A DNA stretch of 64,000 nucleotides from a virus, in UHGV virus genome UHGV-0185973; one strand, given 5' to 3'. The notes under the pieces were generated by a model. It ran no database searches and had not been told where the DNA came from. It saw only the letters and a list, made by a program, of their open reading frames with translations. This document shows, piece by piece, positions 6,140-24,006 of the stretch (position 1 is its first letter; every line of letters begins with the position of its first letter). A program made the translations under genes and the position numbers.

Positions 6140-8515
6140 ATGCGCATGGTAAATGACCACGCAGAAGTAATTAAGAGTTCAACCACGTTAGAGACTGCTC
6201 AAGCATCGATTACCATGACTCCTGAGATGTTTAGTCTTCTGAGTTCTGGTGTATACACACATAAGGAACGTGCTGTAATTCGTGAGCTTTCCTGTAATGC
6301 TGTAGATGCTCATGTAGAGGCTGGTAATTCAGATAAACCATTCAGGGTTCACTTACCAACTCGTTTTGAGCCTTACTTTGAAGTACGAGATTTTGGAACT
6401 GGTTTAACACACGATAAAGTTATGTCTCTGTATCTCAACTACGGAGAATCAACAAAGAATGATTCCAACGATTATATTGGTGCAATGGGTATCGGTTCAA
6501 AGTCACCATTTGCAATTGCTCAATCATTTACTGTGTCAAGCTATGTAGATGGTGTTGTAAACAAATACTCTGTATATCTGGAAAATGGTATTCCAAGGGT
6601 TACTAAACTGACAACTAACCCTACTGTTGAACCAAACGGTTTAGCTGTACGTGTGGCAGTTTCTGACCAACGTATCAGTAAGTTTGCAGATGAAGCAAGT
6701 AACGTGTTCTCTTACTTCAAAGTAAAACCAGAGTGTAACATTGAGTATCGTGATATCCTTGCAGAGATGACTTCAATCTCTCGTGAAGCAAATGTCTACG
6801 ATGCTATGAAGTACAAAGAGAACTGGCGTTCAAGCAATAACGTAGTTAACTTTAATGTGGTCATGGGTAATATTGCATACCCTGTTGATGTACCAACTTT
6901 GTTCGAAGGTAACTATGCAGATGCTGTTCCACAGTTCTTCAGGAATGCAGTAGACCTTGTTAACATCTATATGCCAATCGGTTCAGTAGCTATTGCTGCA
7001 TCTCGTGAAGCACTACAGATGAATGAGGCAACTAAGCAGAAGATTATTGATGCTGTTAACCGTATCACAGAGACTATTGTTGCAGATGTTATCAAGGCTG
7101 TTGCTGATAAGCCAACTTTGCTTGATGCTGCACAAGCTTACAGTGACATGTTTAAAGATTCTCGTGAAATCTTCATGCACGTTCAAAACAAGCTTGAGTG
7201 GAATGGTCAGAACTTAGCAGAACTTGACAGAAAACTTAACAGTATTCGTCGTGGTCAGTTAACTGAAGCAGATGGTTCACCGTCATTTATTAAGAATGAT
7301 GCAGGTGATTTCATGCTTGACAAAGATGGTAATAAGATTCCTAACATTGGGAACCTGTATGAACCAGTAGCTTATTATAAGTTTAGTAGTCTTGAGAACC
7401 GTATTCGTGCAACTTCAGCCACTTATACACAAGACTCTTCAATGTTCAATATCTTCAGTGGTATGAGCAAAGATAAGCTGTATAACTACATGTTTATGAT
7501 TAATGACCGTCGAAACAAAAACGGTACTGAGAAGACAACTGGTAAGAATCAGATTATCCGTGGAGCTTGCCGTGACCGTGAACTTGAAGAACCTATGTTC
7601 CGTCGCTACAATGGTATAGTTTTCATGTTTAGTTCTGAAGAACAATTGGATGACTTTATCAAGCTTCATATGCTGGATAAGAGCTTGCTTAATATTGTCA
7701 CAATGTCTTCTAAAGAGCACCACTATGTTAAGCGTACCGTTGTACGTGGTGTTGTTAAGCTGTATAAAGCATTCATGGACAGTACACCACGGATTGCCTA
7801 TACAGAAGTGAAAGAGAACTTTGATGATATTGAAGAACCACAATATTACATCAAGGCACAAAGTGACACTGTTGTGGGTGATATCTTCAGTTGTTCCCCA
7901 GAGACAGCAGCAAAACTGACTGCTCAACTTATTGGACAACCTGTGTATGTCTTCCGTAAGGCTAACTGGAAGAAAGTACCTGAAGATTGGATTGAAATCA
8001 GTGACCAAGTTTTCAAAGATTTTATTGACAGTAGCCATTGGGTTGATTACAATCGCTACCTCACTCACCAGTACATGAGTGGAAGTAAAGGCACTAGCAT
8101 TCTTGACTGTAATGTTATCTCAAGAAACTTCACCTTTAAGGATAAGAAGATTTCTAAAGGCTACGTGTACAGCAAAGACTTTGAGAAGGTAATGTTCCTT
8201 GAAGGGAATGAAGAAGCAATTGAGGATGTATTCGGTCGAATCGCCTACACTGCTGCACCTATTGCTTACATGTTTGAGACAAGTGTTTTAAATGACATTC
8301 GTCGTCACACAAAGAGCGGAAGCAAAATTAACAAGAGTCTGAAGAAAGCTAAGAACCATATGGAGAAGAAACTTGAAGTTTATTTCTCTAAAAGAAAGTC
8401 AAAAAACTTCTTGCTTTCACACCTTGATTGGAATAAAGTAAGCCCTGTTGAAGTGAGTAACTTCTTAGGTCACCAAGTCCGGTCAATCCCTTCAGATACA
8501 ACTGCTTGGGACTAA
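6140..8515 (+). CDS. rIIA: rIIA protein
   Basis: 791-aa ORF; N-terminal ATPase-like region (ELSCNAVDAH...GTGLTHDKV...GAMGIGSKSPF); immediately upstream of a clear rIIB homologue, the conserved rIIA-rIIB arrangement. Confidence 0.75.
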   Translation: MRMVNDHAEVIKSSTTLETAQASITMTPEMFSLLSSGVYTHKERAVIRELSCNAVDAHVEAGNSDKPFRVHLPTRFEPYFEVRDFGTGLTHDKVMSLYLNYGESTKNDSNDYIGAMGIGSKSPFAIAQSFTVSSYVDGVVNKYSVYLENGIPRVTKLTTNPTVEPNGLAVRVAVSDQRISKFADEASNVFSYFKVKPECNIEYRDILAEMTSISREANVYDAMKYKENWRSSNNVVNFNVVMGNIAYPVDVPTLFEGNYADAVPQFFRNAVDLVNIYMPIGSVAIAASREALQMNEATKQKIIDAVNRITETIVADVIKAVADKPTLLDAAQAYSDMFKDSREIFMHVQNKLEWNGQNLAELDRKLNSIRRGQLTEADGSPSFIKNDAGDFMLDKDGNKIPNIGNLYEPVAYYKFSSLENRIRATSATYTQDSSMFNIFSGMSKDKLYNYMFMINDRRNKNGTEKTTGKNQIIRGACRDRELEEPMFRRYNGIVFMFSSEEQLDDFIKLHMLDKSLLNIVTMSSKEHHYVKRTVVRGVVKLYKAFMDSTPRIAYTEVKENFDDIEEPQYYIKAQSDTVVGDIFSCSPETAAKLTAQLIGQPVYVFRKANWKKVPEDWIEISDQVFKDFIDSSHWVDYNRYLTHQYMSGSKGTSILDCNVISRNFTFKDKKISKGYVYSKDFEKVMFLEGNEEAIEDVFGRIAYTAAPIAYMFETSVLNDIRRHTKSGSKINKSLKKAKNHMEKKLEVYFSKRKSKNFLLSHLDWNKVSPVEVSNFLGHQVRSIPSDTTAWD

Positions 8516-16311: not shown

Positions 16312-16383
16312 ATAGCTCTGTAGTAATACTCACAATAGCTTTAAGCCTTTCTTACTCAAGCATTCAGCAAGGTAAGGAGGGCT

Positions 16384-16565
16384 TTTTCATTTCAAAAACG
16401 TGCAGGTGTAGTGCTATAGAGAAATCTGTACAGCAATTTCTGAACTCCAAAGAGAAAAATCATTTTAGAATTGTGCAGGTCAACTCCAAAGAGCTTTTTC
16501 ATTTTCAATCTGTGCAGATGCAGTTGGACTCCAAAGGGAAAATTCATTTTCAATTTGTGCAGGTA
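16384..16565. repeat. imperfect tandem repeats, about 40-45 bp unit, 3-4 copies
   Basis: Repeated ACTCCAAAGRG ... TTTTCATTTTCAAT.TGTGCAGRT units at about 16400, 16472, 16511, 16556; they produce the spurious minus-strand ORF 16392-16703. Confidence 0.6.
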
Positions 16566-16737
16566 GGTAGCTATAGGAAGCCAGCCCCACCATCCCCTCT
16601 TACTCCCCTTCCTCCCAAAAGTCAAGAGAAAAATTTGTAGAGAACTGAAAAATAATTCTTGACTAGTTTTCTGTTTTCTGTTAGTTGCGTACACGCGTTT
16701 CATTCACAACTTTCCAAAAATATTTTTAAAAATTTTC

Positions 16738-16766
16738 TTGACTCTATGAATCCAGTTTTGTAGTAT
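16738..16766 (+). promoter_or_regulatory. sigma70-like promoter (TTGACT-N17-TAGTAT)
   Basis: TTGACT 16738-16743, TAGTAT 16761-16766; upstream of the first cassette ORF. Confidence 0.5.
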
Positions 16767-16819
16767 TTGCATCAACGGGGCAAGCAAGCCCCAACAATCC
16801 TAAACTGGAGAATCTAAAA

Positions 16820-17203
16820 ATGAAAAAATACTACATGCCTAAATTCATCAAGAAAGAAAACTTTCGTAATGCTCTGGAAAAATCTATGGGCGAACAATTC
16901 AAAGGAAAAATAATTGTTGTTCACGCTTACAATTTTAAGTATGATGTGAATGGAAACAAGATAAACCATTATACCGCTACAATGTTAGATGGTACACTAT
17001 CAGGAGAAAAAGCCGTCATAAATGCACTTGCTGGACGTGGAAAAACTCTCATCCGTTGCGATAAACGCCGCTATCAGGGTAGTGCTTATGGTTATGAAGA
17101 TGCAATCTATCATCTTGATAACATGGGTTACAATGTCGAAAAAGCTGGCGTATCTCAAATGATTGGCAGTGATGGCTATGTAACAATCTTTGAAATTAAC
17201 TAA
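16820..17203 (+). CDS. hypothetical protein (cassette ORF)
   Basis: Preceded by conserved CCTAAACTGGAGAATCTAAAAATG context. Confidence 0.55.
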   Translation: MKKYYMPKFIKKENFRNALEKSMGEQFKGKIIVVHAYNFKYDVNGNKINHYTATMLDGTLSGEKAVINALAGRGKTLIRCDKRRYQGSAYGYEDAIYHLDNMGYNVEKAGVSQMIGSDGYVTIFEIN

Positions 17204-17289
17204 TAAAGTACTTTACATGGGGTTTATAGTTCGATAGGATAAGCCCCAGATAAAGAACTTTATCACTAACCTAAACTGGAGTTTTAAAA

Positions 17290-17547
17290 ATGGCTACCAT
17301 TAAAAACATCGTAATTACTGCAAAATCCCGTGATGACGCTCGCGCAACTGCTAAAAAATTAAATGGTAAAGTAGTTGACAACGGAAAAAGTTCTGCTGTA
17401 AGATGGGGCGTAAAGACAGACAAGGAATTAACCTTGAAACATAGCTCTAAAAACCTGTTTAAAGGTGTACAGACTATCGGTAAAACAAATGTATTTACAA
17501 AACAAGGTTATAAAATGCACTTGGCATTAACTGACAATTTAATCTAA
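17290..17547 (+). CDS. hypothetical protein (cassette ORF)
   Basis: Preceded by full cassette 17205-17289. Confidence 0.55.
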   Translation: MATIKNIVITAKSRDDARATAKKLNGKVVDNGKSSAVRWGVKTDKELTLKHSSKNLFKGVQTIGKTNVFTKQGYKMHLALTDNLI

Positions 17548-17638
17548 AAAGTACTTTACATGGGGTTTATAAATTGCTAGTATAAGCCCCAGATAAAGAG
17601 CTTTACCACTAAACAATCCTAAACTGGAGAATCTAAAA

Positions 17639-18151
17639 ATGAAATTTGTTGAAAGTACCTTTGAAGTTCAAAAAGAAAAATTCACCATTATCTATGAGGC
17701 AATGAATATTTGTGAGCCTTCCCATTGTGTGGATAACTGGCAATTTACTGATGAGCATAAAGGCGGGGTTACAATCAAAGTTAAGAATGCAGAACGTAAC
17801 AGCTACAAATATGCAATTCCCACACATTACCCGCTTTCACAACTTACCAGTGACTACGCAAAACAGGGAAGGGATAACCCGTCATTGGAAGCTTACAAGA
17901 GCTTACAGGATGAGCTAGAAAGGGATTTACAGGCTAATAACTACATCTTGTATGCCTCAGTAGTTGACGCTGAAGGCAACACGGTTTTAAATAGTTTTTC
18001 CCTTGCGTATGGTTTCGATTGGTGCTATCTTGACGGGGAAGATTTAGATTCACGCTTAAAAGAGGAAGTCAGTAATTCAGGTGCTGAAGAGGAAGTTTTA
18101 GAGCGTTTGGAAGATTTAAAAGACAGTGTGATGAATATCTTTAACATTTAA
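17639..18151 (+). CDS. hypothetical protein (cassette ORF)
   Basis: Preceded by full cassette 17548-17638. Confidence 0.55.
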   Translation: MKFVESTFEVQKEKFTIIYEAMNICEPSHCVDNWQFTDEHKGGVTIKVKNAERNSYKYAIPTHYPLSQLTSDYAKQGRDNPSLEAYKSLQDELERDLQANNYILYASVVDAEGNTVLNSFSLAYGFDWCYLDGEDLDSRLKEEVSNSGAEEEVLERLEDLKDSVMNIFNI

Positions 18152-18235
18152 AAGTACTTTACATGGGGTTATCAGGCTGATAAGATAGCCCCAGATAAAG
18201 AGCTTTACCCAATAACCTAAACTGGAGATTCTAAA

Positions 18236-18532
18236 ATGTTTATCGCTGCAAATGTACGTTCCAAATTGAGCAAGCTTTTACAAGATATCAAATTTGTAGA
18301 ATCTATGCGCCGCACTCATGAAGTAACGGAGTGGTATCATGGGAAAATAAATGGTAAAGAAGTTGTTATTTGTATTTGGAATTTTTGTAAAGAATACAAA
18401 AAGCCGTTGCTTCAGGTGGATATCTATGATAATGCAAATAAAAATTCTGTTAAGTCTACAAGGGATATGATAGATTCTTTTGAGATTAGCCACACTGGCA
18501 GACTATTTCACAAAGGAAAATCATCATGCTAA
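18236..18532 (+). CDS. hypothetical protein (cassette ORF)
   Basis: Preceded by cassette 18152-18235. Confidence 0.55.
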   Translation: MFIAANVRSKLSKLLQDIKFVESMRRTHEVTEWYHGKINGKEVVICIWNFCKEYKKPLLQVDIYDNANKNSVKSTRDMIDSFEISHTGRLFHKGKSSC

Positions 18533-18849
18533 TTTCTGGAGTTGCCTTACTCATTGCTATTTTAGCACTGTATAAATCATGTAAAGCACATCATGCGGCA
18601 AGTGATGCAATCACAAGACAAATCAATAATAAACTTGTGACGTCCTTTCTAGAGCGTTTAAACGTGGAACAACTGAAGCGCTTAGAGATGGGCTTCAGAT
18701 TCAAGGCTGATACGTATCAGGTTAGCGACATTCTAAGCGGTGATTTTCAATTGATTGATGATTATAACGCTTTATTAAATGCTTTAAATATCAGTGACTT
18801 GAAAGATTATCATGCTGTTATTGTTCACGAAATAAGCAAACGAAAATAA
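18526..18849 (+). CDS. hypothetical membrane protein
   Basis: N-terminal TM segment MLISGVALLIAILALY; start overlaps upstream ORF. Confidence 0.45.
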   Translation: MLISGVALLIAILALYKSCKAHHAASDAITRQINNKLVTSFLERLNVEQLKRLEMGFRFKADTYQVSDILSGDFQLIDDYNALLNALNISDLKDYHAVIVHEISKRK

Positions 18850-18942
18850 ATTACTAAAAAGGGCTTGCAACTGATAGCAAAAACAAGTAAATTACTAATC
18901 AGACGGGCAAACAAGCCCACTTCCTAAACTGGAGAATCTAAA

Positions 18943-19215
18943 ATGTATACTACCAACAATAGCCGAACTTTAAATGTAACTTTAAAGCACTATGTAGAGG
19001 GTGTATTAAACTTTGAAGACTTGCAAGCAGAACAGCACTTGTTAGGTTGGCAAGTAGCAGGATTACAAAAAACTGCCACCGGATATGGGAAGAAAATCCC
19101 TACATCGTGGAAAGTGCGCTATTTAGGCAAGTTACGTAGAATTTATCAAGATGTTTATAGCAATAGTGGTGTAAGTTACATTATTGTTAACGGTAAGAAG
19201 TTGTATTTAATCTAA
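18943..19215 (+). CDS. hypothetical protein (cassette ORF)
   Basis: Preceded by variant cassette with the conserved RBS context. Confidence 0.5.
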   Translation: MYTTNNSRTLNVTLKHYVEGVLNFEDLQAEQHLLGWQVAGLQKTATGYGKKIPTSWKVRYLGKLRRIYQDVYSNSGVSYIIVNGKKLYLI

Positions 19216-19301
19216 TAAATTGCTTTACATGGGGTTATCAGGCTGATAAGATAGCCCCAGATAAAGAGATTTACCCAATAACCTAAACTGGAGATTCTAA
19301 A

Positions 19302-19703
19302 ATGACTGCTAATCGTGATATCGCTATTCTGAAAGCACGATTGACTGTAAATCGTATTAATTCTATCACATCCACAGCACCCGATGAGACATTGCATAAC
19401 ATTATCGGTAAAATTCAAGGTGTAATTTTAGACGTAGAAAACATCAAAAATTCACTTGCAAACGTTGCAAATGGTGCTACACTTGACGGCGCACAATATG
19501 AAATGGCTGATATGTTAGCCAAATCAAAAGTAATGAATAAAGAACTTGATTTGAAAATGTTTCGATTTGCTGTTAAAGTGTGGCTAGCTATTGAGTTCGA
19601 TGCTAATTTTGCAATTGCTGATTTCTTTGCTACATGGTTACAACGTAACCTGTCAAAACAAGACTTTGAAGATATCTGCGACACAATTTACGCAGAACTT
19701 TAA
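19302..19703 (+). CDS. hypothetical protein (cassette ORF)
   Basis: Preceded by cassette 19216-19301. Confidence 0.55.
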   Translation: MTANRDIAILKARLTVNRINSITSTAPDETLHNIIGKIQGVILDVENIKNSLANVANGATLDGAQYEMADMLAKSKVMNKELDLKMFRFAVKVWLAIEFDANFAIADFFATWLQRNLSKQDFEDICDTIYAEL

Positions 19704-19806
19704 AAAACGTTTGACACTAATTTTTAGATAGATTAAAGTACTAATCAGACGGGTATGCAATAACCTCCCCAGTAAGTGAAGTCCTTAAACTAGGAGATTC
19801 TAAAAA

Positions 19807-20010
19807 ATGGCTATTATTAACGGCTTAACCATCGAAAAAACACACATCAAAGACATTAAAGTTGGGGATACAGTTCTTTTTCACGGCGTAGAAAAAACTG
19901 TCACCGCAAAAGATATCAAAGAAGATTCTTTCATGGGTGTGACTCTATTCGGCGACTCTTATCGCTTAGGATACCTTGCAGTTTTAAAAGTTATCAAAAA
20001 TAACCGATAA
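19807..20010 (+). CDS. hypothetical protein (cassette ORF)
   Basis: Preceded by variant cassette (CTTAAACTAGGAGATTCTAAAAAATG). Confidence 0.5.
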   Translation: MAIINGLTIEKTHIKDIKVGDTVLFHGVEKTVTAKDIKEDSFMGVTLFGDSYRLGYLAVLKVIKNNR

Positions 20011-20096
20011 AGTACTTTACAGGGGGCTTAAAAGTTGATACCTTAAGCCCCAGATAAAGAGCTTTACCAAATCAATCCTAAACTGGAGATTCTAAA

Positions 20097-20654
20097 ATGA
20101 AATGCTTTCACGGTACTACTCAAGAAAACTTTTTAAACCTCATCAATGGCGGCGAAAAACCTACAGGTGCTTGGAATTGCTCTGATATGGATGGTTATTT
20201 TTACGTATACCCTGTCAGTAAGTTCTGCGACGTAGAAGAGATGGACGAAGAACAAATCACAAATGAAGGGTTGCGCAATGCTCTTGATAGTGCTACAATC
20301 ACAGCAGCTATCCAAATGAAAACTCAAAATATTGTTATCTTAGAACTTGAAATTCCAGAAGATGAGTTACAAGATGATTGGTCTTGTGAGAATATGAGTG
20401 ACATCGCAAGCTTTACAGAGCACTTTGATAAAGATTGGGTTAAAAAGGTTTATACAACTGAATTCAATGCAATGTATTCACCGTTTTTTGTTCCTAACTT
20501 ACAAAATCGTAATTTGGGATATATTGATGAAAAGCTTGAAGAGGTTGCAACATTCATCCAAAATGCCGATGATAGCTCAATCATCTATTGCAATATGCTG
20601 GACGCAATGCAAGAAAGCTTAACAGAAAGCGTTTTAAGCGACGTTTTAGCGTAA
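20097..20654 (+). CDS. putative ADP-ribosyltransferase (PARP-like H-Y-E class), cassette ORF
   Basis: N-terminus FHGTTQENFLNLINGG parallels the PARP signature WHGSRTTNFAGILSQG; downstream DGYFYVYPVSKF parallels GKGIYFADMVSKS; acidic ILELEIPEDE segment follows. Motif-level call only. Confidence 0.35.
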   Translation: MKCFHGTTQENFLNLINGGEKPTGAWNCSDMDGYFYVYPVSKFCDVEEMDEEQITNEGLRNALDSATITAAIQMKTQNIVILELEIPEDELQDDWSCENMSDIASFTEHFDKDWVKKVYTTEFNAMYSPFFVPNLQNRNLGYIDEKLEEVATFIQNADDSSIIYCNMLDAMQESLTESVLSDVLA

Positions 20655-20717
20655 ACCATACAATCACACTAACGACATTCAAAAGCCCCGCATAGGGGCT
20701 TACAAGGGGATTAAATC

Positions 20718-20954
20718 ATGTTAACAACAATCTATCTCATGCTTGCCGTTTGCTCTGGTGCAAATAATTGTCATTATGGCATTATGGAATCTTTCGAAGG
20801 CACTAAACAAAATGCAGTAGAGGCTTGCAATATTGCTAGACAGGACTACCCGAAATCGTCTATAATGGACTGTTATGTCTCACAAGGTGAAGACGAAAGC
20901 ACAGAATACTACGAAAACGTTAATGAAGATGAATTTTTAGAGATTTACAAATAA
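20718..20954 (+). CDS. hypothetical small secreted protein or lipoprotein
   Basis: N-terminus MLTTIYLMLAVCSG resembles a signal peptide with lipobox-like LAVC. Confidence 0.4.
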   Translation: MLTTIYLMLAVCSGANNCHYGIMESFEGTKQNAVEACNIARQDYPKSSIMDCYVSQGEDESTEYYENVNEDEFLEIYK

Positions 20955-21030
20955 AGTACTTTACATGGGGCTTAAAAGCTTGATACCATAAGCCCCAGAT
21001 AAAGAGCTTTCCTAAACTGGAGTTTTCACA

Positions 21031-21177
21031 ATGTCAAATATAGTTGAAATGGTTTTTAATAATCCGGTATTCTCAGAGATGATTTTCTCGTTTATCATGA
21101 TGTTACTTGTTAAAACCATGAAAAAAGCCGAAAAATTACACTCAAAGAAAAAAGCTATTGCAAACCGTTTTAAGTAA
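21031..21177 (+). CDS. small membrane protein (48 aa), not in ORF track
   Basis: Preceded by cassette 20955-21030; product has hydrophobic core MIFSFIMMLLV and basic C-terminus. Confidence 0.35.
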   Translation: MSNIVEMVFNNPVFSEMIFSFIMMLLVKTMKKAEKLHSKKKAIANRFK

Positions 21178-21224
21178 AGATATAGTATCAATCAAGCCCA
21201 CTTCCTAAACTGGAGAATCTAAAA

Positions 21225-21566
21225 ATGGCATACGTAACAATTATCACTGATAAAGAAAACTCTTCTTGGTCCACACAAGTAAGCGATAAAATGTCGCCTA
21301 TGCAATGCCTCAAATACTTTGAGCAATGGAACAGGGGGGAAGATGTAAGCCCTTTCCAAGTAATGCAGGTTGTACATGTTGACAATGACGGCAACAAAAC
21401 TACCCTTAACACTGAATACTATGCTACACGTTTTGAGACTCGCAAAGAAGCTATGCGGGAACTAAGAGAAAAGGGCTATAGTCACATTGCCGCTTTGATT
21501 TGGTCTGATTTGCTTAAAAAACAAGCATTAACCTACGTCAAGCCTGAAAAAATCTTTATAAACTAA
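21225..21566 (+). CDS. hypothetical protein (cassette ORF)
   Basis: Preceded by conserved RBS context. Confidence 0.5.
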   Translation: MAYVTIITDKENSSWSTQVSDKMSPMQCLKYFEQWNRGEDVSPFQVMQVVHVDNDGNKTTLNTEYYATRFETRKEAMRELREKGYSHIAALIWSDLLKKQALTYVKPEKIFIN

Positions 21567-21598
21567 TCAACAACTTACAAAATTCTTTGAAAAAACTG

Positions 21599-21627
21599 TT
21601 GACATTGCCCCTTGACAATAGTACATT
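21599..21627 (+). promoter_or_regulatory. sigma70-like promoter (TTGACA-N17-TACATT)
   Basis: TTGACA 21599-21604; second TTGACA 21612-21617; weaker -10. Confidence 0.35.
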
Positions 21628-21788
21628 TGTTCGAGGGGGTTTATCTAAAGGGATTCACTTAAAAGATTCTTTATAGATAAGCGAAAAAGTACTTGCAATC
21701 AGATTTCAAAACAAGTAAATTACTAAGCAACGGGGAGGGGATGACCTTCCCCACTAAGTAAAGTCCTTAAACTAGGAGATTCTAAAAA

Positions 21789-22037
21789 ATGTATACTAAA
21801 ACACAACTCAAAAGCATGGTAAACAGTGGTTTAATGAATGATGTTTATAAGGATTGCAGACGTTACGGGGAAATAAGAGAGATAATTGATTATGAGTATA
21901 CTCACACAATAAATTTCAAAACTAATGAAAAACGGACTGACTTTATAACTGTAGTGATTATTGAATACAAAAATTTATTGTGGACTTTTGAGCTGGTGAA
22001 AGGTGAGTGTATAGAAATCGAATACAAGGCCGCTTAA
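21789..22037 (+). CDS. hypothetical protein (cassette ORF)
   Basis: Preceded by variant cassette; last gene of the rightward block. Confidence 0.5.
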   Translation: MYTKTQLKSMVNSGLMNDVYKDCRRYGEIREIIDYEYTHTINFKTNEKRTDFITVVIIEYKNLLWTFELVKGECIEIEYKAA

Positions 22038-22091
22038 AAGTACTTTATAGGGGGATTAAAAGCTGACACCTTAAGCCCCCAAACACCTTTA

Positions 22092-22127
22092 CAGCCCCTT
22101 TTGTCTCTCTCATAGGGGCTTTTTTTA
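22092..22127 (+). terminator. rho-independent terminator
   Basis: AGCCCCT ... AGGGGCT stem followed by TTTTTTT. Confidence 0.65.
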
Positions 22128-22596
22128 CGTCTATGTAATAGCCCCTCTCAAATGCTTATATAAACCCTTCCCCTGTCCTTTCCAGAATCTTACAAGACCT
22201 TAAAAAGCAATAACTCTATAGCTTACTCTATAACCTCTTATCAAATCAACTTAAATATAAGCCCATAACCCGAAAGGGAAGGGCAATCCCTTAAACGCTC
22301 TATAACGCTCTATAACGGCTTATCAACTCAACTTAACCAATCATATTAACCCACTCTTAAAAGCCCTCTATAGAGCTTCATAGACCCTTAAAAGAATCTT
22401 ATAAGGGGTGTAAGCTTTATCATCTCGTTAGTATCTTGTGAATAGTTAAACAGGGGGCTTGTTATTAGCTTAAAAGTATGTTATAGGGGCTTAAAAGTAG
22501 CTATAAAGTTACGTAAAAGTATCGTAAATGCTAGCCCCCTTAACATTTCTTTAACAATTTCTTAACAATCCCTACATAGTTATGCTTATTAGAGAC

Positions 22597-23110
22597 TTGT
22601 TAGCACCTTGTTAAATCTCTGTTAAGACTATGTTACAACCTTGTTAGATTCTTTGGAGTCCCTATATAAGCCCCTGTAAAGGGCTATAAAGAGCTATACA
22701 GTCAGTTGGGCTATAGTTACTATGGAGAACCTTAGAAATGGCTGTATAGAGCTATACAGGGCTTTTAAGAGGGCTTTTAAGAGAATCACTGAGAAAGATA
22801 GGGAACTATAGACCAAGAGATAGTGACATGTTAACAGCTTGTTAAAAAGGTTAAACACTTGTTAGGAACTTGTTAATAATCTTAACAAAATAACTCTTAA
22901 CATTTAACTACTCAACTCTTGTTAGCAATCTGTTAAGACTCTGTAAAGACTATGCAACAACTGTTAAGCACTTGTTACAATCTTGTTAGCTCTGTTAAGG
23001 GTCTATTAAGAACTCTGAAGAGATGTTAAGAGGATGTAGTAACTGTTAAGAAATTGTTAATGATATTTTAAGATTTTGCAAAGGGTATGTTACAGGGATG
23101 TTAAGGGCTA
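22597..23110. repeat. array of short degenerate repeats (core YTGTTAR) with about 10-11 bp phasing
   Basis: At least 20 copies of CTTGTTAG / CTGTTAAG / ATGTTACA, e.g. five consecutive copies 22597-22650 at 10-11 bp spacing and a dense run 22828-23110; inverted copies (TTAACA) at 22538-22570 and 22880-22905. No ORF of 60 aa or more across 22128-23870. Confidence 0.7.
22742..22759. promoter_or_regulatory. inverted repeat CTGTATAG-ag-CTATACAG (operator-like)
   Basis: Perfect 8-bp arms; same arms form the palindrome in the rIIA promoter (6086-6105); CTATACAG also at 22694, 23514 and 38040. Confidence 0.4.
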
Positions 23111-24006
23111 CCAAGCAGATATACACCCTAGACAGATATTTTTCAGTTCCTTCAAAGAACCTAAATAAAACACTTGACAGTCTATTTTATAAAAATTTTA
23201 TAGAACTGAATAACTATCTATACACTATCTAGTATAAAACAGGTAATAACAGGCTTATAAGATACCTTGTTAGTACCGTGTTAGACCTTGTAGGATAAGC
23301 CTTAGAAGGGAATACCTGTTTAGTGCTATATAACAGTCTATATAGAGGCTTAGTAAACCCTAGTGAACCATCTATAGAGAGTCACATAGTTAACATAGAG
23401 ATTAAGATGGGTATAGGAGCTTCTAAGGGGTTGTTAAGATGTTAGGAAGGGGGTTGTATAGGTGGTTAAGAAGGCTTGTTAGAGAGCTTGTTAGAGGGCT
23501 ATTTAGAAGGGGCTATACAGTTCACTATATCGAATCACTAGAAAGAGACTAAGAGGCTATATAGATACTATATAATACTATATAGAGAGTATGCTTAGAT
23601 AGGTTGTTTAGAAGGGCTAGATATTTTATCACATATCATGGTGACCCAAGATGAACGTAGTGAATCCAAATTTTATAAAATTATAAATTTCGTAAATTTT
23701 ACTCAATAAAAAGCCCCTATGAGATAGATTCTATCGAATCCATATTAAGGGGCTGTAAAGTTCTTAGCAAAGGTTATCTATGATAGCCTGAATAGCTGGA
23801 ATAGTTGTGTGATAAAAATGAGTGTTTCCATTATGAGCTTCTCTCTCTTGTAACATGATAGAGTGACCCTTTACAGGGAAGCATTGAATGTGATAACGAT
23901 TCCCGTTAAATATTGCTCCACCACCTGAACAGAAACCTTCCAAGACTGACTTAGCAAGGAACTCATTTTCGCTACCTCTAAAGAGGGGCTGTTACACCCC
24001 TTTAAA

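What the first reader, a model, noticed from the sequence alone, without database searches (positions are those of the whole stretch)
16738..22127. Array of about 13 small ORFs each preceded by a near-identical regulatory cassette
Each ORF is preceded by the same roughly 85-bp unit: a TTTACA box, a GC-clamped hairpin (GGGG...CCCC) whose loop carries a -10-like hexamer, a conserved CCCCAGATAAAGAGCTTTACC box and an identical translation start context (CCTAAACTGGAGAATCTAAAAATG). This resembles the promoter-stem-loop cassettes reported to shuffle small early genes in T4-type phages, although this genome otherwise looks Felix O1-like. None of the products except the PARP-like one matches anything I recognise.
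Basis: seen in the sequence. Interest (0 to 1): 0.7.

Follow-up and report, generated by a model that had tools for sequence, protein, structure and literature searches.

The report
Portable promoter-hairpin cassettes shuffling phage genes
In this Felix O1-like phage, a run of 13 small early genes is stitched together by near-identical ~90-base promoter-plus-hairpin units, and comparison with relatives shows that genes have been deleted, duplicated, swapped and moved at these units; this kind of element was previously described only in T4-type phages.

Summary
The repeats are real, but the description overstates them. Of the 13 ORFs, 6 are preceded by the full unit (class A). Another 5 have a different promoter/hairpin (class B) joined to the same ribosome-site context. 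Two have neither. One decayed class A copy closes the array.

The main new point is that the "CCCCAGATAAAGAGCTTTACC box" is not a separate box. It is the 3' strand of a ~55-nt two-tier hairpin. Its 5' strand contains the -35 TTTACA. Its loop and 3' inner arm carry an invariant TAnnnT -10, 17-18 bp from the -35.

Across 73 distinct copies from 18 loci, 97% of pair positions form standard pairs, against 32-66% when the partners are slid. Two pairs (a third marginally) show compensatory changes, there are fixed U·G wobbles, and the + strand folds better than the - strand.

The cassette occurs in 288 phage records, essentially all Ounavirinae, and in no bacterial genome scanned.

All 15 complete arrays compared differ in gene content. 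Deletions leave clean hybrid cassettes. The window's nearest relative changes from one module to the next.

Verdict: this is a PeSL-type regulatory and recombination cassette system in a second myovirus subfamily, where the literature searched describes it only as "direct repeats". It is a new variant of a known kind, of moderate interest.

The parts
16343..16389 (+). Intrinsic terminator after the macro-domain gene. It is the upstream boundary of the array's transcription unit.
   Evidence: Hairpin of -19.7 kcal/mol, z -5.9, followed by UUUUU. It corresponds to Felix O1 terminator t13.
16738..16822 (+). Class B cassette B1. Promoter TTGACT-17-TAGTAT (16738-16766), 5'-UTR hairpin GGGGC..GCCCC (16777-16792), CCTAAACTGGAG SD context and ATG.
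   Evidence: hairpin -13.6 kcal/mol, z -3.4. Conserved in relatives.
16820..17203 (+). ORF G05 (127 aa), function unknown.
   Evidence: phrog_4495, no Pfam hit. Absent from Felix O1, mistaenkt and Moogle.
17201..17292 (+). Class A cassette A1. -35 at 17212-17217, -10 TAGGAT at 17235-17240, two-tier hairpin about 17203-17263, SD and ATG.
   Evidence: CM 85.2 bits. Fold -24.1 kcal/mol, z -5.45.
17290..17547 (+). ORF G06 (85 aa), function unknown.
   Evidence: phrog_5089. Tandemly duplicated in L013; absent in Felix O1 and Moogle.
17545..17641 (+). Class A cassette A2. -35 at 17555-17560, TGc TAGTAT -10 at 17578-17583.
   Evidence: CM 85.0 bits. Fold -22.8 kcal/mol, z -4.79.
17639..18151 (+). ORF G07 (170 aa), function unknown.
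   Evidence: phrog_4190. Deleted in L050, leaving a hybrid cassette.
18149..18238 (+). Class A cassette A3. -35 at 18158-18163, TGa TAAGAT -10 at 18181-18186. Its hairpin top is identical to that of A4.
   Evidence: CM 79.1 bits. Fold -24.1 kcal/mol, z -5.40. Hairpin-top identity with A4.
18236..18849 (+). Two-gene module G08 (98 aa) + G09 (107 aa). The ORFs overlap and there is no cassette between them.
   Evidence: phrog_4401 and phrog_4375. Adjacent in all 15 complete arrays. 99% identical to pEC-M719 but 76% and 66% to Mordin.
18847..18945 (+). Class B cassette B2. TTGCAA-17-TAAATT (18865-18893), hairpin GGGC..GCCC (18905-18918), SD context.
   Evidence: -11.1 kcal/mol, z -2.75.
18943..19215 (+). 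ORF G10 (90 aa), function unknown.
   Evidence: phrog_3436. Deleted in pEC-M719-6WT.1, leaving a hybrid cassette.
19213..19304 (+). Class A cassette A4. -35 at 19224-19229, -10 TAAGAT at 19247-19252. The outer stem carries the compensated U-A pair (AAATTG / GAGATTT).
   Evidence: CM 79.1 bits. Fold -23.4 kcal/mol. Pair 5-56.
19302..19703 (+). ORF G11 (133 aa), function unknown. One of the 5 universal families.
   Evidence: phrog_4327.
19701..19809 (+). Class B cassette B3. TTGACA-17-TAAAGT (19711-19739), a degenerate hairpin, and the CTTAAACTAGGAG variant of the SD context.
   Evidence: hairpin not significant here, z +0.34.
19807..20010 (+). ORF G12 (67 aa), function unknown. It is an alternative occupant of this slot.
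   Evidence: phrog_3623. Relatives carry the unrelated G30 here, neither gene, or both.
20008..20099 (+). Class A cassette A5. -35 at 20016-20021, TGa TACCTT -10 at 20039-20044.
   Evidence: CM 83.2 bits. Fold -22.7 kcal/mol, z -4.65.
20097..20954 (+). Two-gene module G13 (185 aa, ADP-ribosyltransferase-like fold) + G14 (78 aa), with a small hairpin at 20683-20701 between them.
20952..21033 (+). Class A cassette A6, a short form in which the box runs straight into the SD context. -35 at 20960-20965, 18-bp spacer, -10 TACCAT at 20984-20989.
   Evidence: CM 78.7 bits. Fold -21.8 kcal/mol, z -4.68.
21031..21177 (+). ORF G15 (48 aa), function unknown.
   Evidence: phrog_31746. Present in 4 of 15 arrays. 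In EcSzw-2 it was removed by a crossover in the SD box.
21175..21227 (+). Truncated class B cassette B4. It keeps only the 3' half of the hairpin (AAGCCCAC) and the SD context. A candidate promoter TTGCAA-17-TATAGT (21158-21186) reaches into G15.
21225..21566 (+). ORF G16 (113 aa), function unknown, universal.
   Evidence: phrog_4318. 95% identical to Moogle but 77-81% to the relatives that are closest for other modules.
21564..21791 (+). Long spacer plus class B cassette B5. TTGACA-17-TACATT (21599-21627) lies inside a CCCC..GGGGG hairpin. Then TTGCAA-N17-TAAATT, hairpin GGGGAGGG..CCTTCCCC (21732-21752) and the CTTAAACTAGGAG SD context.
   Evidence: (-21 kcal/mol, z -2.76). The spacer is conserved in all relatives.
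21789..22037 (+). ORF G17 (82 aa), function unknown. It takes the place of the usual last gene of the array.
   Evidence: phrog_23636. No match in the 6 relatives compared base by base. In wV8 its homologue sits between G14 and G16.
22035..22127 (+). Decayed class A cassette (TTTATA, hairpin kept, box lost) followed by the intrinsic terminator that ends the array.
   Evidence: CM 27.5 bits, E 6e-5. Terminator stem 22103-22119 plus TTTTTTT. Fold.

Best explanation
The array is the hyperplastic early-gene block of an Ounavirinae (Felix O1-like) phage. It is bounded by two intrinsic terminators. Each gene, or two-gene module, carries its own portable expression cassette.

All cassettes end in the same translation-initiation module, (U/A)CCUAAACUGGAG-N7-9-AUG.

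Class A cassettes (6 copies plus 1 relic) hold a host sigma-70-type promoter, TTTACA-17/18-(TGn)TAnnnT. The whole promoter is embedded in a ~55-nt two-tier hairpin:
- The -35 region (AAAGTRCTTTA) pairs with the 'box' (TAAAGAGCTTT) to form an 11-bp outer stem.
- A small internal loop (CA(U)/(A)GA) separates the stems.
- The promoter spacer forms the G4/C4-clamped inner stem.
- The -10 lies in the loop and the 3' inner arm.

Inferred mechanism:
1. The hairpin forms in + strand RNA that reads through from the upstream gene. There it insulates modules as an attenuator, or as a 3'-end-forming or RNase III-type processing and stabilising structure.
2. Transcripts started at the cassette's own promoter begin about 7 nt after the -10, at CCCC^AGA. 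They therefore lack the 5' arm and have an open 5' UTR.

Class B cassettes place a TTGACx promoter just upstream of a G/C-clamped hairpin, so the hairpin sits at the 5' end of the mRNA.

The ~90-bp cassettes are near-identical while the ORFs between them are unrelated. Homologous and microhomology recombination between cassettes, within a genome or between co-infecting relatives, therefore deletes, duplicates, replaces and relocates whole expression-ready modules. This is PeSL-type modular shuffling.

Shown here: the anatomy, the conservation pattern, the structural covariation, the restriction to Ounavirinae, and the cassette-bounded mosaicism.

Inferred: promoter activity, the RNA-level role of the hairpin, and recombination as the cause of the mosaicism.
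For: Anatomy and statistics
- establish the elements and their non-random occurrence.
- The hairpin folds at -22 to -24 kcal/mol, z -4.6 to -5.5, in all 6 copies.

Structure under selection
- 97.1% of cells are paired, against 31-66% for slid partners.
- Pair 5-57 is GC 51 / UA 13 / GU 3 / AU 1.
- Pair 18-43 is GC in all 65 enteric copies and UA in all 8 Kolesnikvirus copies, with none unpaired.
- U·G wobbles are fixed at two positions.
- The + strand folds better than the - strand in 44 of 54 copies, mean -22.3 against -18.8 kcal/mol.

Promoter
- CTTTACA and the loop 'TA' are invariant, and the last T of the -10 is kept in at least 90% of copies. This holds in an otherwise variable loop and at fixed 17-18 bp spacing, across 54 distinct copies.
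- 5 of 6 copies are called by the consensus scan, 4 of them with TGn.
- In Felix O1, RT-PCR shows array genes maximally expressed at 5 min (ORFs 16, 20, 21, 22) or 25 min.

Shuffling
- 15 of 15 complete arrays differ. Of 25 gene families, only 5 are universal.
- The cassette-free block just upstream shows 5 arrangements in 19 loci.
- 38 of 78 presence/absence character pairs fail the four-gamete test.
- Clean hybrid cassettes of normal length remain after deletion of G07 (L050), G10 (L056), G12/G30 (KMM4, L019, L035, L056) and G15 (EcSzw-2).
- Mordin has tandem cassettes and L013 has a duplicated G06 module.
- Gene order is rearranged in Kolesnikvirus, and G17 sits in another slot in wV8.
- The window's nearest relative switches module by module while cassettes stay 86-99% identical to all relatives.
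- The same hairpin 'allele' occurs at different slots. 21 of 127 copies have a closer paralogue in the same genome than any copy at the orthologous slot.
- The ORFs between cassettes are unrelated to each other.
Against: - There is no transcript mapping for any Ounavirinae in the searchable literature. Promoter use and the fate of the hairpin RNA are therefore inferred.
- The generic promoter scan is not enriched over shuffles in this AT-rich region (21 found against 17.2 expected).
- The hairpin has no U-tract, so it is not a canonical intrinsic terminator.
- Most stem pairs never vary (9 of 17). The copies are related and homogenised, so the covariation rests on few independent events. Alignment A3 is fitted to the model.
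- The - strand also folds well.
- Gene indels between intact genes would fall in intergenic DNA under selection alone. The cassette-free upstream block is also somewhat variable (4 of 9 families).
- The nearest-neighbour test for concerted evolution is mixed (65 orthologue-closer, 41 ties, 21 paralogue-closer).
Confidence: 0.75

Rival explanations
1. Expression-only cassettes. The units are simply strong early promoters combined with RNA hairpins and an optimised ribosome site. They are kept alike by functional constraint and play no special part in recombination. The module-wise gene variation reflects ordinary illegitimate or homologous recombination filtered by selection for intact genes.
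For: All conserved positions can be assigned to the promoter, the stems or the SD. The cassette-free upstream block also shows some gene gain and loss. For 65 of 127 copies the closest relative is at the orthologous slot.
Against: Deletions leave seamless hybrid cassettes of canonical length. Their 5' part matches the upstream cassette and their 3' part the downstream one (L050, L056, KMM4, EcSzw-2). Identical hairpin alleles occur at different slots, and slot alleles differ between genomes. All copies in a genus share GGGG/CCCC or GGUG/CACC, which indicates concerted evolution. 15 of 15 arrays differ, against 5 arrangements in 19 loci for the neighbouring block.
Confidence: 0.14
2. DNA-level element. 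The inverted repeat acts in DNA. It could be a folded single-strand or cruciform site for a dedicated recombinase or nuclease, analogous to integron attC. Alternatively it could be a palindromic operator for a phage repressor that shuts off all early promoters together.
For: The internal-loop bases CA and AGA are invariant although unpaired. Arbiol et al. speculated that the GGGG..CCCC motif might be a target for a recombination protein. The architecture, small ORFs separated by imperfect hairpin repeats, resembles gene-cassette arrays.
Against: Junctions lie at different places along the cassette: between box and SD, within the SD box, at CTTTAC, and at ATG/CTTTACA. They do not fall at one fixed site. 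Two stem positions are U·G wobbles in most copies, which become C·A mismatches on the other strand, and the + strand folds better. G-C and U-A variants of pair 5-56 coexist in one genome (A3 versus A4), which a sequence-reading palindrome binder would not tolerate. Felix O1-type phages are virulent and no integrase is annotated in the relatives inspected. The whole window was not searched for recombinases.
Confidence: 0.07
3. Plain terminator-promoter pairs. Each class A hairpin is a Rho-independent terminator for the upstream gene that happens to overlap the next promoter.
For: PeSL stem-loops of RB49 and phi1 reduced read-through in a lacZ assay as strongly as rrnB T1. The wV8 record annotates a terminator on one such hairpin, but on the - strand.
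Against: None of the 6 copies has a U-tract after either stem. The hairpin is followed by AGAUAAAG or by ACC. The terminator scan calls none of them on the + strand, although it does call the true array-end terminator. A ~20-bp interrupted helix is far longer than terminators need.
Confidence: 0.04

Closest known systems
PeSLs (promoter-early stem-loops) of T4-type phages RB49/phi1, T4/PST and KVP40/nt-1 (Arbiol et al. 2010, PMC2839356; Comeau et al. 2014, PMC4122927)
   Same: A repeated unit reaching from the stop codon to the ATG. A sigma-70-like early promoter; here TTTACA-N17-TAnnnT, close to the T4/PST form TTTACW-N17-TAYWAT. A Gn-loop-Cn stem-loop lying between the -35 and -10 and overlapping the -10, which is the commonest RB49 and phi1 arrangement. 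SD plus ATG at the 3' end. Clustering in a hyperplastic block of ORFans. Indels and replacements between relatives bounded by the unit, with crossovers between the -10 and the SD.
   Different: The host phage belongs to an unrelated myovirus subfamily (Ounavirinae). blastn shows no sequence similarity to T4-type phages. The hairpin is two-tiered (~20 bp) and includes the -35 and a dedicated downstream box, with covariation support. There is no U-tract. A second cassette class puts the hairpin in the 5' UTR. A 20-nt translation-start context is shared by both classes. Terminator activity and mini-circles, both shown for RB49 and phi1, are untested here.
RNase III processing signals between the early genes of phage T7, such as R1.1 (features as summarised in Pertzev & Nicholson 2006, PMC1540722)
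   Same: Intergenic hairpins in an early, multi-gene transcription unit. About two helical turns interrupted by an internal loop. In T7 this geometry limits cleavage to one strand and leaves a protective 3' hairpin on the upstream mRNA. Here the 3' side of the internal loop (AGA) would give a downstream 5' end close to the predicted promoter start.
   Different: No cleavage data exist. The proximal and distal box rules were not evaluated. No Rfam family matches. T7 sites do not contain promoters.
'Direct repeats' listed in the Felix O1 and wV8 genome descriptions
   Same: It is the same DNA. The Felix O1 57-bp repeat CTTTACATGGGGCTTAAAAGTCTGTAAAGTAAGCCCCAGATAAAGAGCTTTACCACT and the 39-bp repeat TTGACACTGG... 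are class A and class B cassettes. The wV8 features DR_1 to DR_9 and Mordin's 14-bp repeat_region features cover them.
   Different: These were recorded only as repeats. No promoter, hairpin or recombination role was proposed.
Integron gene-cassette arrays (attC sites)
   Same: Arrays of small, mostly unknown-function ORFs separated by imperfect inverted repeats that can fold as single strands. Cassette content varies between close relatives.
   Different: Each module has its own promoter. No integrase is evident. Junctions are not at a fixed site. There is no attC R/L box pattern. The phage is virulent.

Membership tests
PeSL (T4-type promoter-early stem-loop cassette) | [quoted passage not shown] | tested here: met
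   6 class A copies of 82-97 nt. The stop codon TAA is often the first three bases of TAAAGTACTTTACA. There are 6 hits against 0 expected.
PeSL (T4-type promoter-early stem-loop cassette) | Sigma-70-like early promoter (-35, ~17 bp, -10) inside the motif | tested here: met
   By sequence only. TTTACA is invariant, spacing is 17-18 bp, the TA of the -10 is invariant in a variable loop, and TGn is frequent. Activity was not tested.
PeSL (T4-type promoter-early stem-loop cassette) | Stable stem-loop with a G-tract and C-tract positioned between or overlapping the -35 and -10 | tested here: met
   The GGGG..CCCC inner stem spans the spacer and the 3' arm overlaps the -10. Folds are -22 to -24 kcal/mol, z about -5. 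97% of cells are paired over 73 copies.
PeSL (T4-type promoter-early stem-loop cassette) | Shine-Dalgarno sequence and start codon at the 3' end | tested here: met
   CCTAAACTGGAG-N7-9-ATG in all copies.
PeSL (T4-type promoter-early stem-loop cassette) | Preferential location in hyperplastic regions rich in ORFans | tested here: met
   All copies in the 64-kb window lie in the array. All 13 ORFs fall in PHROGs of unknown function with no Pfam domain. 15 of 15 arrays differ.
PeSL (T4-type promoter-early stem-loop cassette) | Insertions, deletions and replacements between related phages are bounded by the motif | tested here: met
   Hybrid cassettes remain after loss of G07, G10, G12/G30 and G15. 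There are tandem cassettes, a duplicated module and a slot change. Identity is mosaic module by module.
PeSL (T4-type promoter-early stem-loop cassette) | The stem-loop acts as a transcription terminator or attenuator | not testable with these tools
   There is no U-tract. A reporter assay or 3'-end mapping is needed.
PeSL (T4-type promoter-early stem-loop cassette) | Recombination between flanking motifs yields circular mini-circles | not testable with these tools
   This needs inverse PCR or read-level data. The duplicated G06 module in L013 is compatible with it but does not prove it.
PeSL (T4-type promoter-early stem-loop cassette) | Occurs in T4-like myoviruses, and sequences are related to known PeSLs | tested here: not met
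   The window is Ounavirinae. The cassette matches 288 phage records, essentially all Ounavirinae, and no T4-type phage. It is therefore filed as working like a PeSL, not as a homologue.
E. coli RNase III processing signal (T7 early type) | About two helical turns of dsRNA, often interrupted by an internal loop that restricts cleavage to one strand | tested here: met
   An outer stem of 11 bp (one mismatch), a 2x2 or 3x3 internal loop, and an inner stem of 8-10 bp. The criteria come from PMC1540722.
E. coli RNase III processing signal (T7 early type) | Permissive proximal and distal box base pairs, and actual cleavage by RNase III | not tested
   The box rules were not applied. Cleavage requires an in vitro assay or a comparison of rnc+ and rnc- hosts.
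Rho-independent terminator | GC-rich hairpin immediately followed by a U-tract | tested here: not met
   No class A hairpin is followed by a T-run, and none is called on the + strand.
Integron attC-type recombination site | A dedicated tyrosine recombinase and a fixed crossover point in a conserved core site | tested here: not met
   Junction positions vary along the cassette. No integrase is annotated in the relatives' records inspected. The whole window was not scanned for recombinases.

The most novel reading that the evidence does not exclude
The two-tier hairpin is more than an insulator. It would be a dedicated recognition structure, as folded RNA or single-stranded DNA, for a host or phage nuclease or recombination factor. 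In this reading the array is an integron-like gene-capture platform of a virulent phage. Processing at the internal loop would yield the same mRNA 5' end as the embedded promoter. The same structure would target excision and insertion of ORF modules as mini-circles, which could then spread between Ounavirinae genera.
Probability: 0.12. Interest if true: 0.8.

Novelty: new variant of a known kind. Interest (0 to 1): 0.5.

Why it matters
Felix O1-type phages are widely used for Salmonella and E. coli typing, biocontrol and therapy. How their transcription is organised was stated as unknown in the Felix O1 genome paper.

This finding matters in four ways:
- It gives the early accessory block a concrete regulatory layout: one promoter, one RNA structure and one ribosome site per module.
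- It explains why this block differs in every isolate.
- It extends the PeSL idea beyond T4-like phages. That suggests portable promoter-hairpin units are a convergent, general way for virulent phages to trade small host-takeover or anti-defence genes. This array includes an ADP-ribosyltransferase-fold protein and lies next to a macro-domain protein.
- The cassettes are ready-made landmarks for mining new accessory genes in metagenomes, and natural insertion points for engineering these phages.

Tried and rejected
- Rfam, E-value mode, 15-25 kb: no family matched.
- Generic promoter and terminator scan: total counts are not above shuffles, so only the positions were used.
- Pfam on all 13 ORFs: nothing above cut-off. 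Weak hits to Transposase_1 (E 0.007) and UPF0223 (E 0.01) were judged chance.
- Literature: no transcript mapping of Felix O1-type phages and no earlier PeSL-type description for them was found. One preprint on promoter-terminator coupling could not be opened.
- Bacterial genome scan for the box: 0 matches. The cassette is therefore not borrowed from hosts or prophages.
- Hypothesis that cassette similarity reflects tandem duplication of whole gene segments: rejected, because the flanked ORFs are unrelated.
- Hypothesis of a - strand function or a - strand terminator: rejected, because the - strand folds worse and all genes here are on the + strand.
- Nearest-neighbour test for concerted evolution: only partly informative because of many ties.
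- KMM4 and EcSzw-2 contain frameshifted ORFs or Ns. Their per-gene identities were not used for the mosaic argument.

Full report
**Source of the window.** The window comes from a Felix O1-like myovirus (subfamily Ounavirinae). The array region matches 255 phage records. The best matches are only ~85% identical over 78% of the query (Citrobacter phage BSwM KMM4, Shigella phage ESh22). One array protein is 100% identical to a protein on an 89-kb metagenomic Caudoviricetes contig.

**Check of the observation.** Thirteen + strand ORFs lie between 16820 and 22037.
- The box CCCCAGATAAAGAGCTTTAC occurs 6 times in 64 kb against 0.00 expected.
- The start context CCTAAACTGGAGAWTCTAAAA occurs 8 times against 0.02 expected.
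- A covariance model built from 54 distinct copies finds exactly those six (79-85 bits), one decayed copy at 22036-22094 (27.5 bits), and nothing else below E 0.2 in the window.
- Five further ORFs (16820, 18943, 19807, 21225, 21789) have a second, 'class B' upstream region. It consists of a TTGACx/TTGCAA-17-TAnnnT promoter, then a G/C-clamped hairpin, then the same start context or its variant CTTAAACTAGGAG.
- ORFs 18526 and 20718 have no cassette.
- No other gene in the window shares the 20-nt start context.

**Anatomy of class A.** The conserved box is not an independent element. It is the 3' strand of a long interrupted hairpin.
- AAAGTRCTTTA, which contains most of the -35 TTTACA, pairs with TAAAGAGCTTT over 11 bp with one mismatch.
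- A small internal loop follows: CA(U) opposite (A)GA.
- GGGGYUUA(U) pairs with (A)UAAGCCCC over 8-10 bp.
- The 9-14-nt loop and the 3' inner arm hold the -10.
- All six copies fold this way at -21.8 to -24.1 kcal/mol, with z between -4.6 and -5.5.

**Evidence for a promoter.**
- In 54 distinct copies from 12 genomes the invariant columns are CTTTACA, GGGG, the loop dinucleotide TA (positions 1-2 of the -10) and AGCCCCAGA.AAAGA.
- The rest of the loop is variable.
- The -35/-10 spacing is always 17-18 bp.
- The last T of the -10 is kept in at least 90% of copies.

That pattern is what a promoter predicts and a bare hairpin does not. The consensus scan calls five of the six, four of them with an extended -10 TGn.

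With the usual ~7-nt distance from the -10 (established promoter geometry; inference), transcription would start at CCCC^AGA. A cassette's own transcript would therefore lack the 5' arms. Only read-through RNA from the upstream gene could form the hairpin.

**Is the structure selected?**
- On alignment A1, 97.1% of pair cells are standard pairs, against 31-63% when the 3' partners are slid by 1-3 columns. Pair 5-56 shows G-C 34, U-A 12, G-U 3, A-U 1.
- Eight copies from two Kolesnikvirus (Erwinia and Cronobacter) phages all carry GGUG...CACC instead of GGGG...CCCC.
- Adding these and more relatives gives 73 distinct copies. These are 97.1% paired against 32-66% when slid. Pair 18-43 is G-C 65 / U-A 8 with no unpaired case.
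- Two stem positions are U·G wobbles in most copies (39/54 and 46/54 on A1; 50/73 and 60/73 on A3). These would be C·A mismatches on the other strand.
- The + strand folds better than the - strand in 44 of 54 copies, mean -22.3 against -18.8 kcal/mol.

This favours a structure read in the + strand, most simply RNA. There are caveats. Nine of 17 pairs never vary. The copies are related and homogenised, so independent events are few. Alignment A3 was fitted to the model.

**Distribution.** The 95-nt cassette matches 1502 places in 288 phage records, essentially all Ounavirinae: Felixounavirus, Mooglevirus, Suspvirus and Kolesnikvirus. Exact matches in IMG/VR fall on contigs of 54-94 kb. There are none in one genome each of 185,579 bacterial and archaeal species. 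No Rfam family matches.

**Comparative test of shuffling.** I mapped ORF families and cassettes in 27 loci.
- Among 15 loci with a complete array, all 15 differ in gene content, with 9-19 genes each.
- They hold 25 families, of which only G07, G08, G09, G11 and G16 are universal.
- The adjacent, tightly packed, cassette-free block G22..G03 shows only 5 arrangements in 19 loci.
- 38 of 78 pairs of informative presence/absence characters show all four combinations. The pattern is therefore reticulate, not tree-like.
- Multi-gene modules that lack an internal cassette (G08-G09 and G13-G14) are always gained or lost together.

Junctions are seamless.
- In L050, loss of G07 leaves one 96-nt cassette. 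Its first ~66 nt match the G06>G07 cassette and its last ~30 nt match the G07>G08 cassette of AYO145A.
- In pEC-M719-6WT.1, loss of G10 joins the class B 5' part to the 3' part of the next class A cassette.
- KMM4, L019, L035 and L056 lack G12/G30 with a single hybrid cassette in its place.
- EcSzw-2 lost G15 through a crossover in the SD box.
- Mordin has two cassettes in tandem, joined at the shared CTTTAC.
- L013 has a duplicated [cassette+G06] unit.
- The slot after G11 holds G12, the unrelated G30, both, or neither.
- Kolesnikvirus phages have the shared families in a different order.
- The window's last gene, G17, sits between G14 and G16 in wV8.

Base-level comparison shows the window's similarity to any one relative jumping from module to module.
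- Against pEC-M719: G08 and G09 99%, G13 76%, G16 81%.
- Against Mordin: G06 93%, G07 89%, G08 76%, G09 66%, G16 90%.
- Against Moogle: G16 95%, G09 65%.
- The cassettes themselves stay 86-99% identical to all relatives.

Hairpin 'alleles' are shared between slots; A3 and A4 in the window have identical hairpin tops. Slot alleles differ between genomes, and 21 of 127 copies have a closer paralogue than orthologue, with 41 ties. All copies within a genus share the same clamp variant. These are signs of exchange among cassettes. The ORFs themselves are unrelated to one another, so segmental duplication does not explain the repeats.

**Mechanism.** The best-supported reading is a set of portable expression cassettes that double as recombination linkers.
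- Shown here: anatomy, conservation, covariation, taxonomic restriction and cassette-bounded mosaicism.
- Inferred: promoter activity. It is supported indirectly by Felix O1 RT-PCR, in which array ORFs 16, 20, 21 and 22 peak at 5 min and ORFs 17, 19 and 23 at 25 min.
- Inferred: the RNA role of the hairpin.
- Inferred: recombination as the cause of the mosaicism.

The hairpin is not a canonical intrinsic terminator, because no U-tract follows it. [quoted passage not shown] In those, internal loops restrict cleavage to one strand and leave a protective 3' hairpin (PMC1540722). Cleavage on the AGA side would give nearly the same 5' end as the embedded promoter. This is a lead, not a result.

Class B hairpins would lie 3-6 nt from the mRNA 5' end. 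From general knowledge of 5'-end-dependent decay in E. coli, this is a position known to stabilise mRNAs.

**Comparison with known systems.** The defining, sequence-testable features of PeSLs are all met. Two experimental features, terminator activity and mini-circles, cannot be tested here. The taxonomic and homology criterion is not met: the phage is Ounavirinae and no T4-type phage matches. The element therefore works like a PeSL but is not a homologue of the known ones.

It differs from them in three ways:
- the two-tier hairpin that pairs the -35 with a dedicated box;
- the second cassette class;
- the shared start module.

The same DNA was listed in the Felix O1 paper only as 57-bp and 39-bp direct repeats. 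It appears as DR_1 to DR_9 in the wV8 record and as 14-bp repeat_region features in the Mordin record. I found no paper giving it a regulatory or recombinational interpretation.

**Verdict.** This is a genuine, subfamily-wide feature. It is a new variant of a known kind, and of moderate interest.

Noticed in passing
[not shown]
   Followed up: partly
window 22130-23900: About 1.8 kb has no convincing ORF. It is packed with 10-12-bp-periodic TGTTAA/CTTGTTA-type repeats and long inverted repeats (for example 22354-22399 with 22726-22771). It lies where + strand genes give way to - strand genes. Several GenBank relatives start or end their records here. It could be the genome terminus or packaging region, or an origin. 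It also holds fragments resembling cassette 5' halves (22386-22414, 22468-22496).
   Followed up: partly
window 16400-16560: Three to four imperfect ~40-bp direct repeats (ACTCCAAAGRG....TCATTTTCAATNTGTGCAGGT) lie between the macro-gene terminator and the first array promoter. They are conserved in Mooglevirus and Suspvirus relatives. Their function is unknown. The small ORFs called there (for example 16473-16640) look spurious.
   Followed up: no
window 21585-21660: The long spacer after ORF 21225-21566 is conserved in all relatives. It contains TTGACA-17-TACATT (21599-21627) inside a CCCC..GGGGG hairpin (-18.6 kcal/mol, z -1.8), a third way of nesting a promoter in a hairpin. Gene content downstream of this spacer is especially variable.
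   Followed up: partly
window, 14 nt before each array SD, e.g. 16797-16811: The conserved context (U/A)CCUAAACUGGAG can form a 3-4-bp mini-hairpin that pairs CC with the GG of the SD. The variant CCUUAAACUAGGAG and the Kolesnikvirus form CCUUAUAAAGG keep or extend this pairing. It may tune translation, or be a site for a shared translational regulator or nuclease. Every SD in the array is GGAG.
   Followed up: no
L004 (Escherichia phage EcSzw-2, MH791400.1) 6740-7700: This UNVERIFIED record has a ~970-bp insert between two array genes. The insert resembles the non-coding region downstream of the array. The record also contains several Ns inside cassettes. This is probably an assembly problem, not biology.
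   Followed up: no
window 21789-22037: The last array gene (phrog_23636) replaces the gene that ends the array in 14 of 15 relatives compared. Its homologues occur in only 23 phage records. A few of these are named for Hafnia, Serratia, Enterobacter and Listeria hosts, and were not examined.
   Followed up: partly
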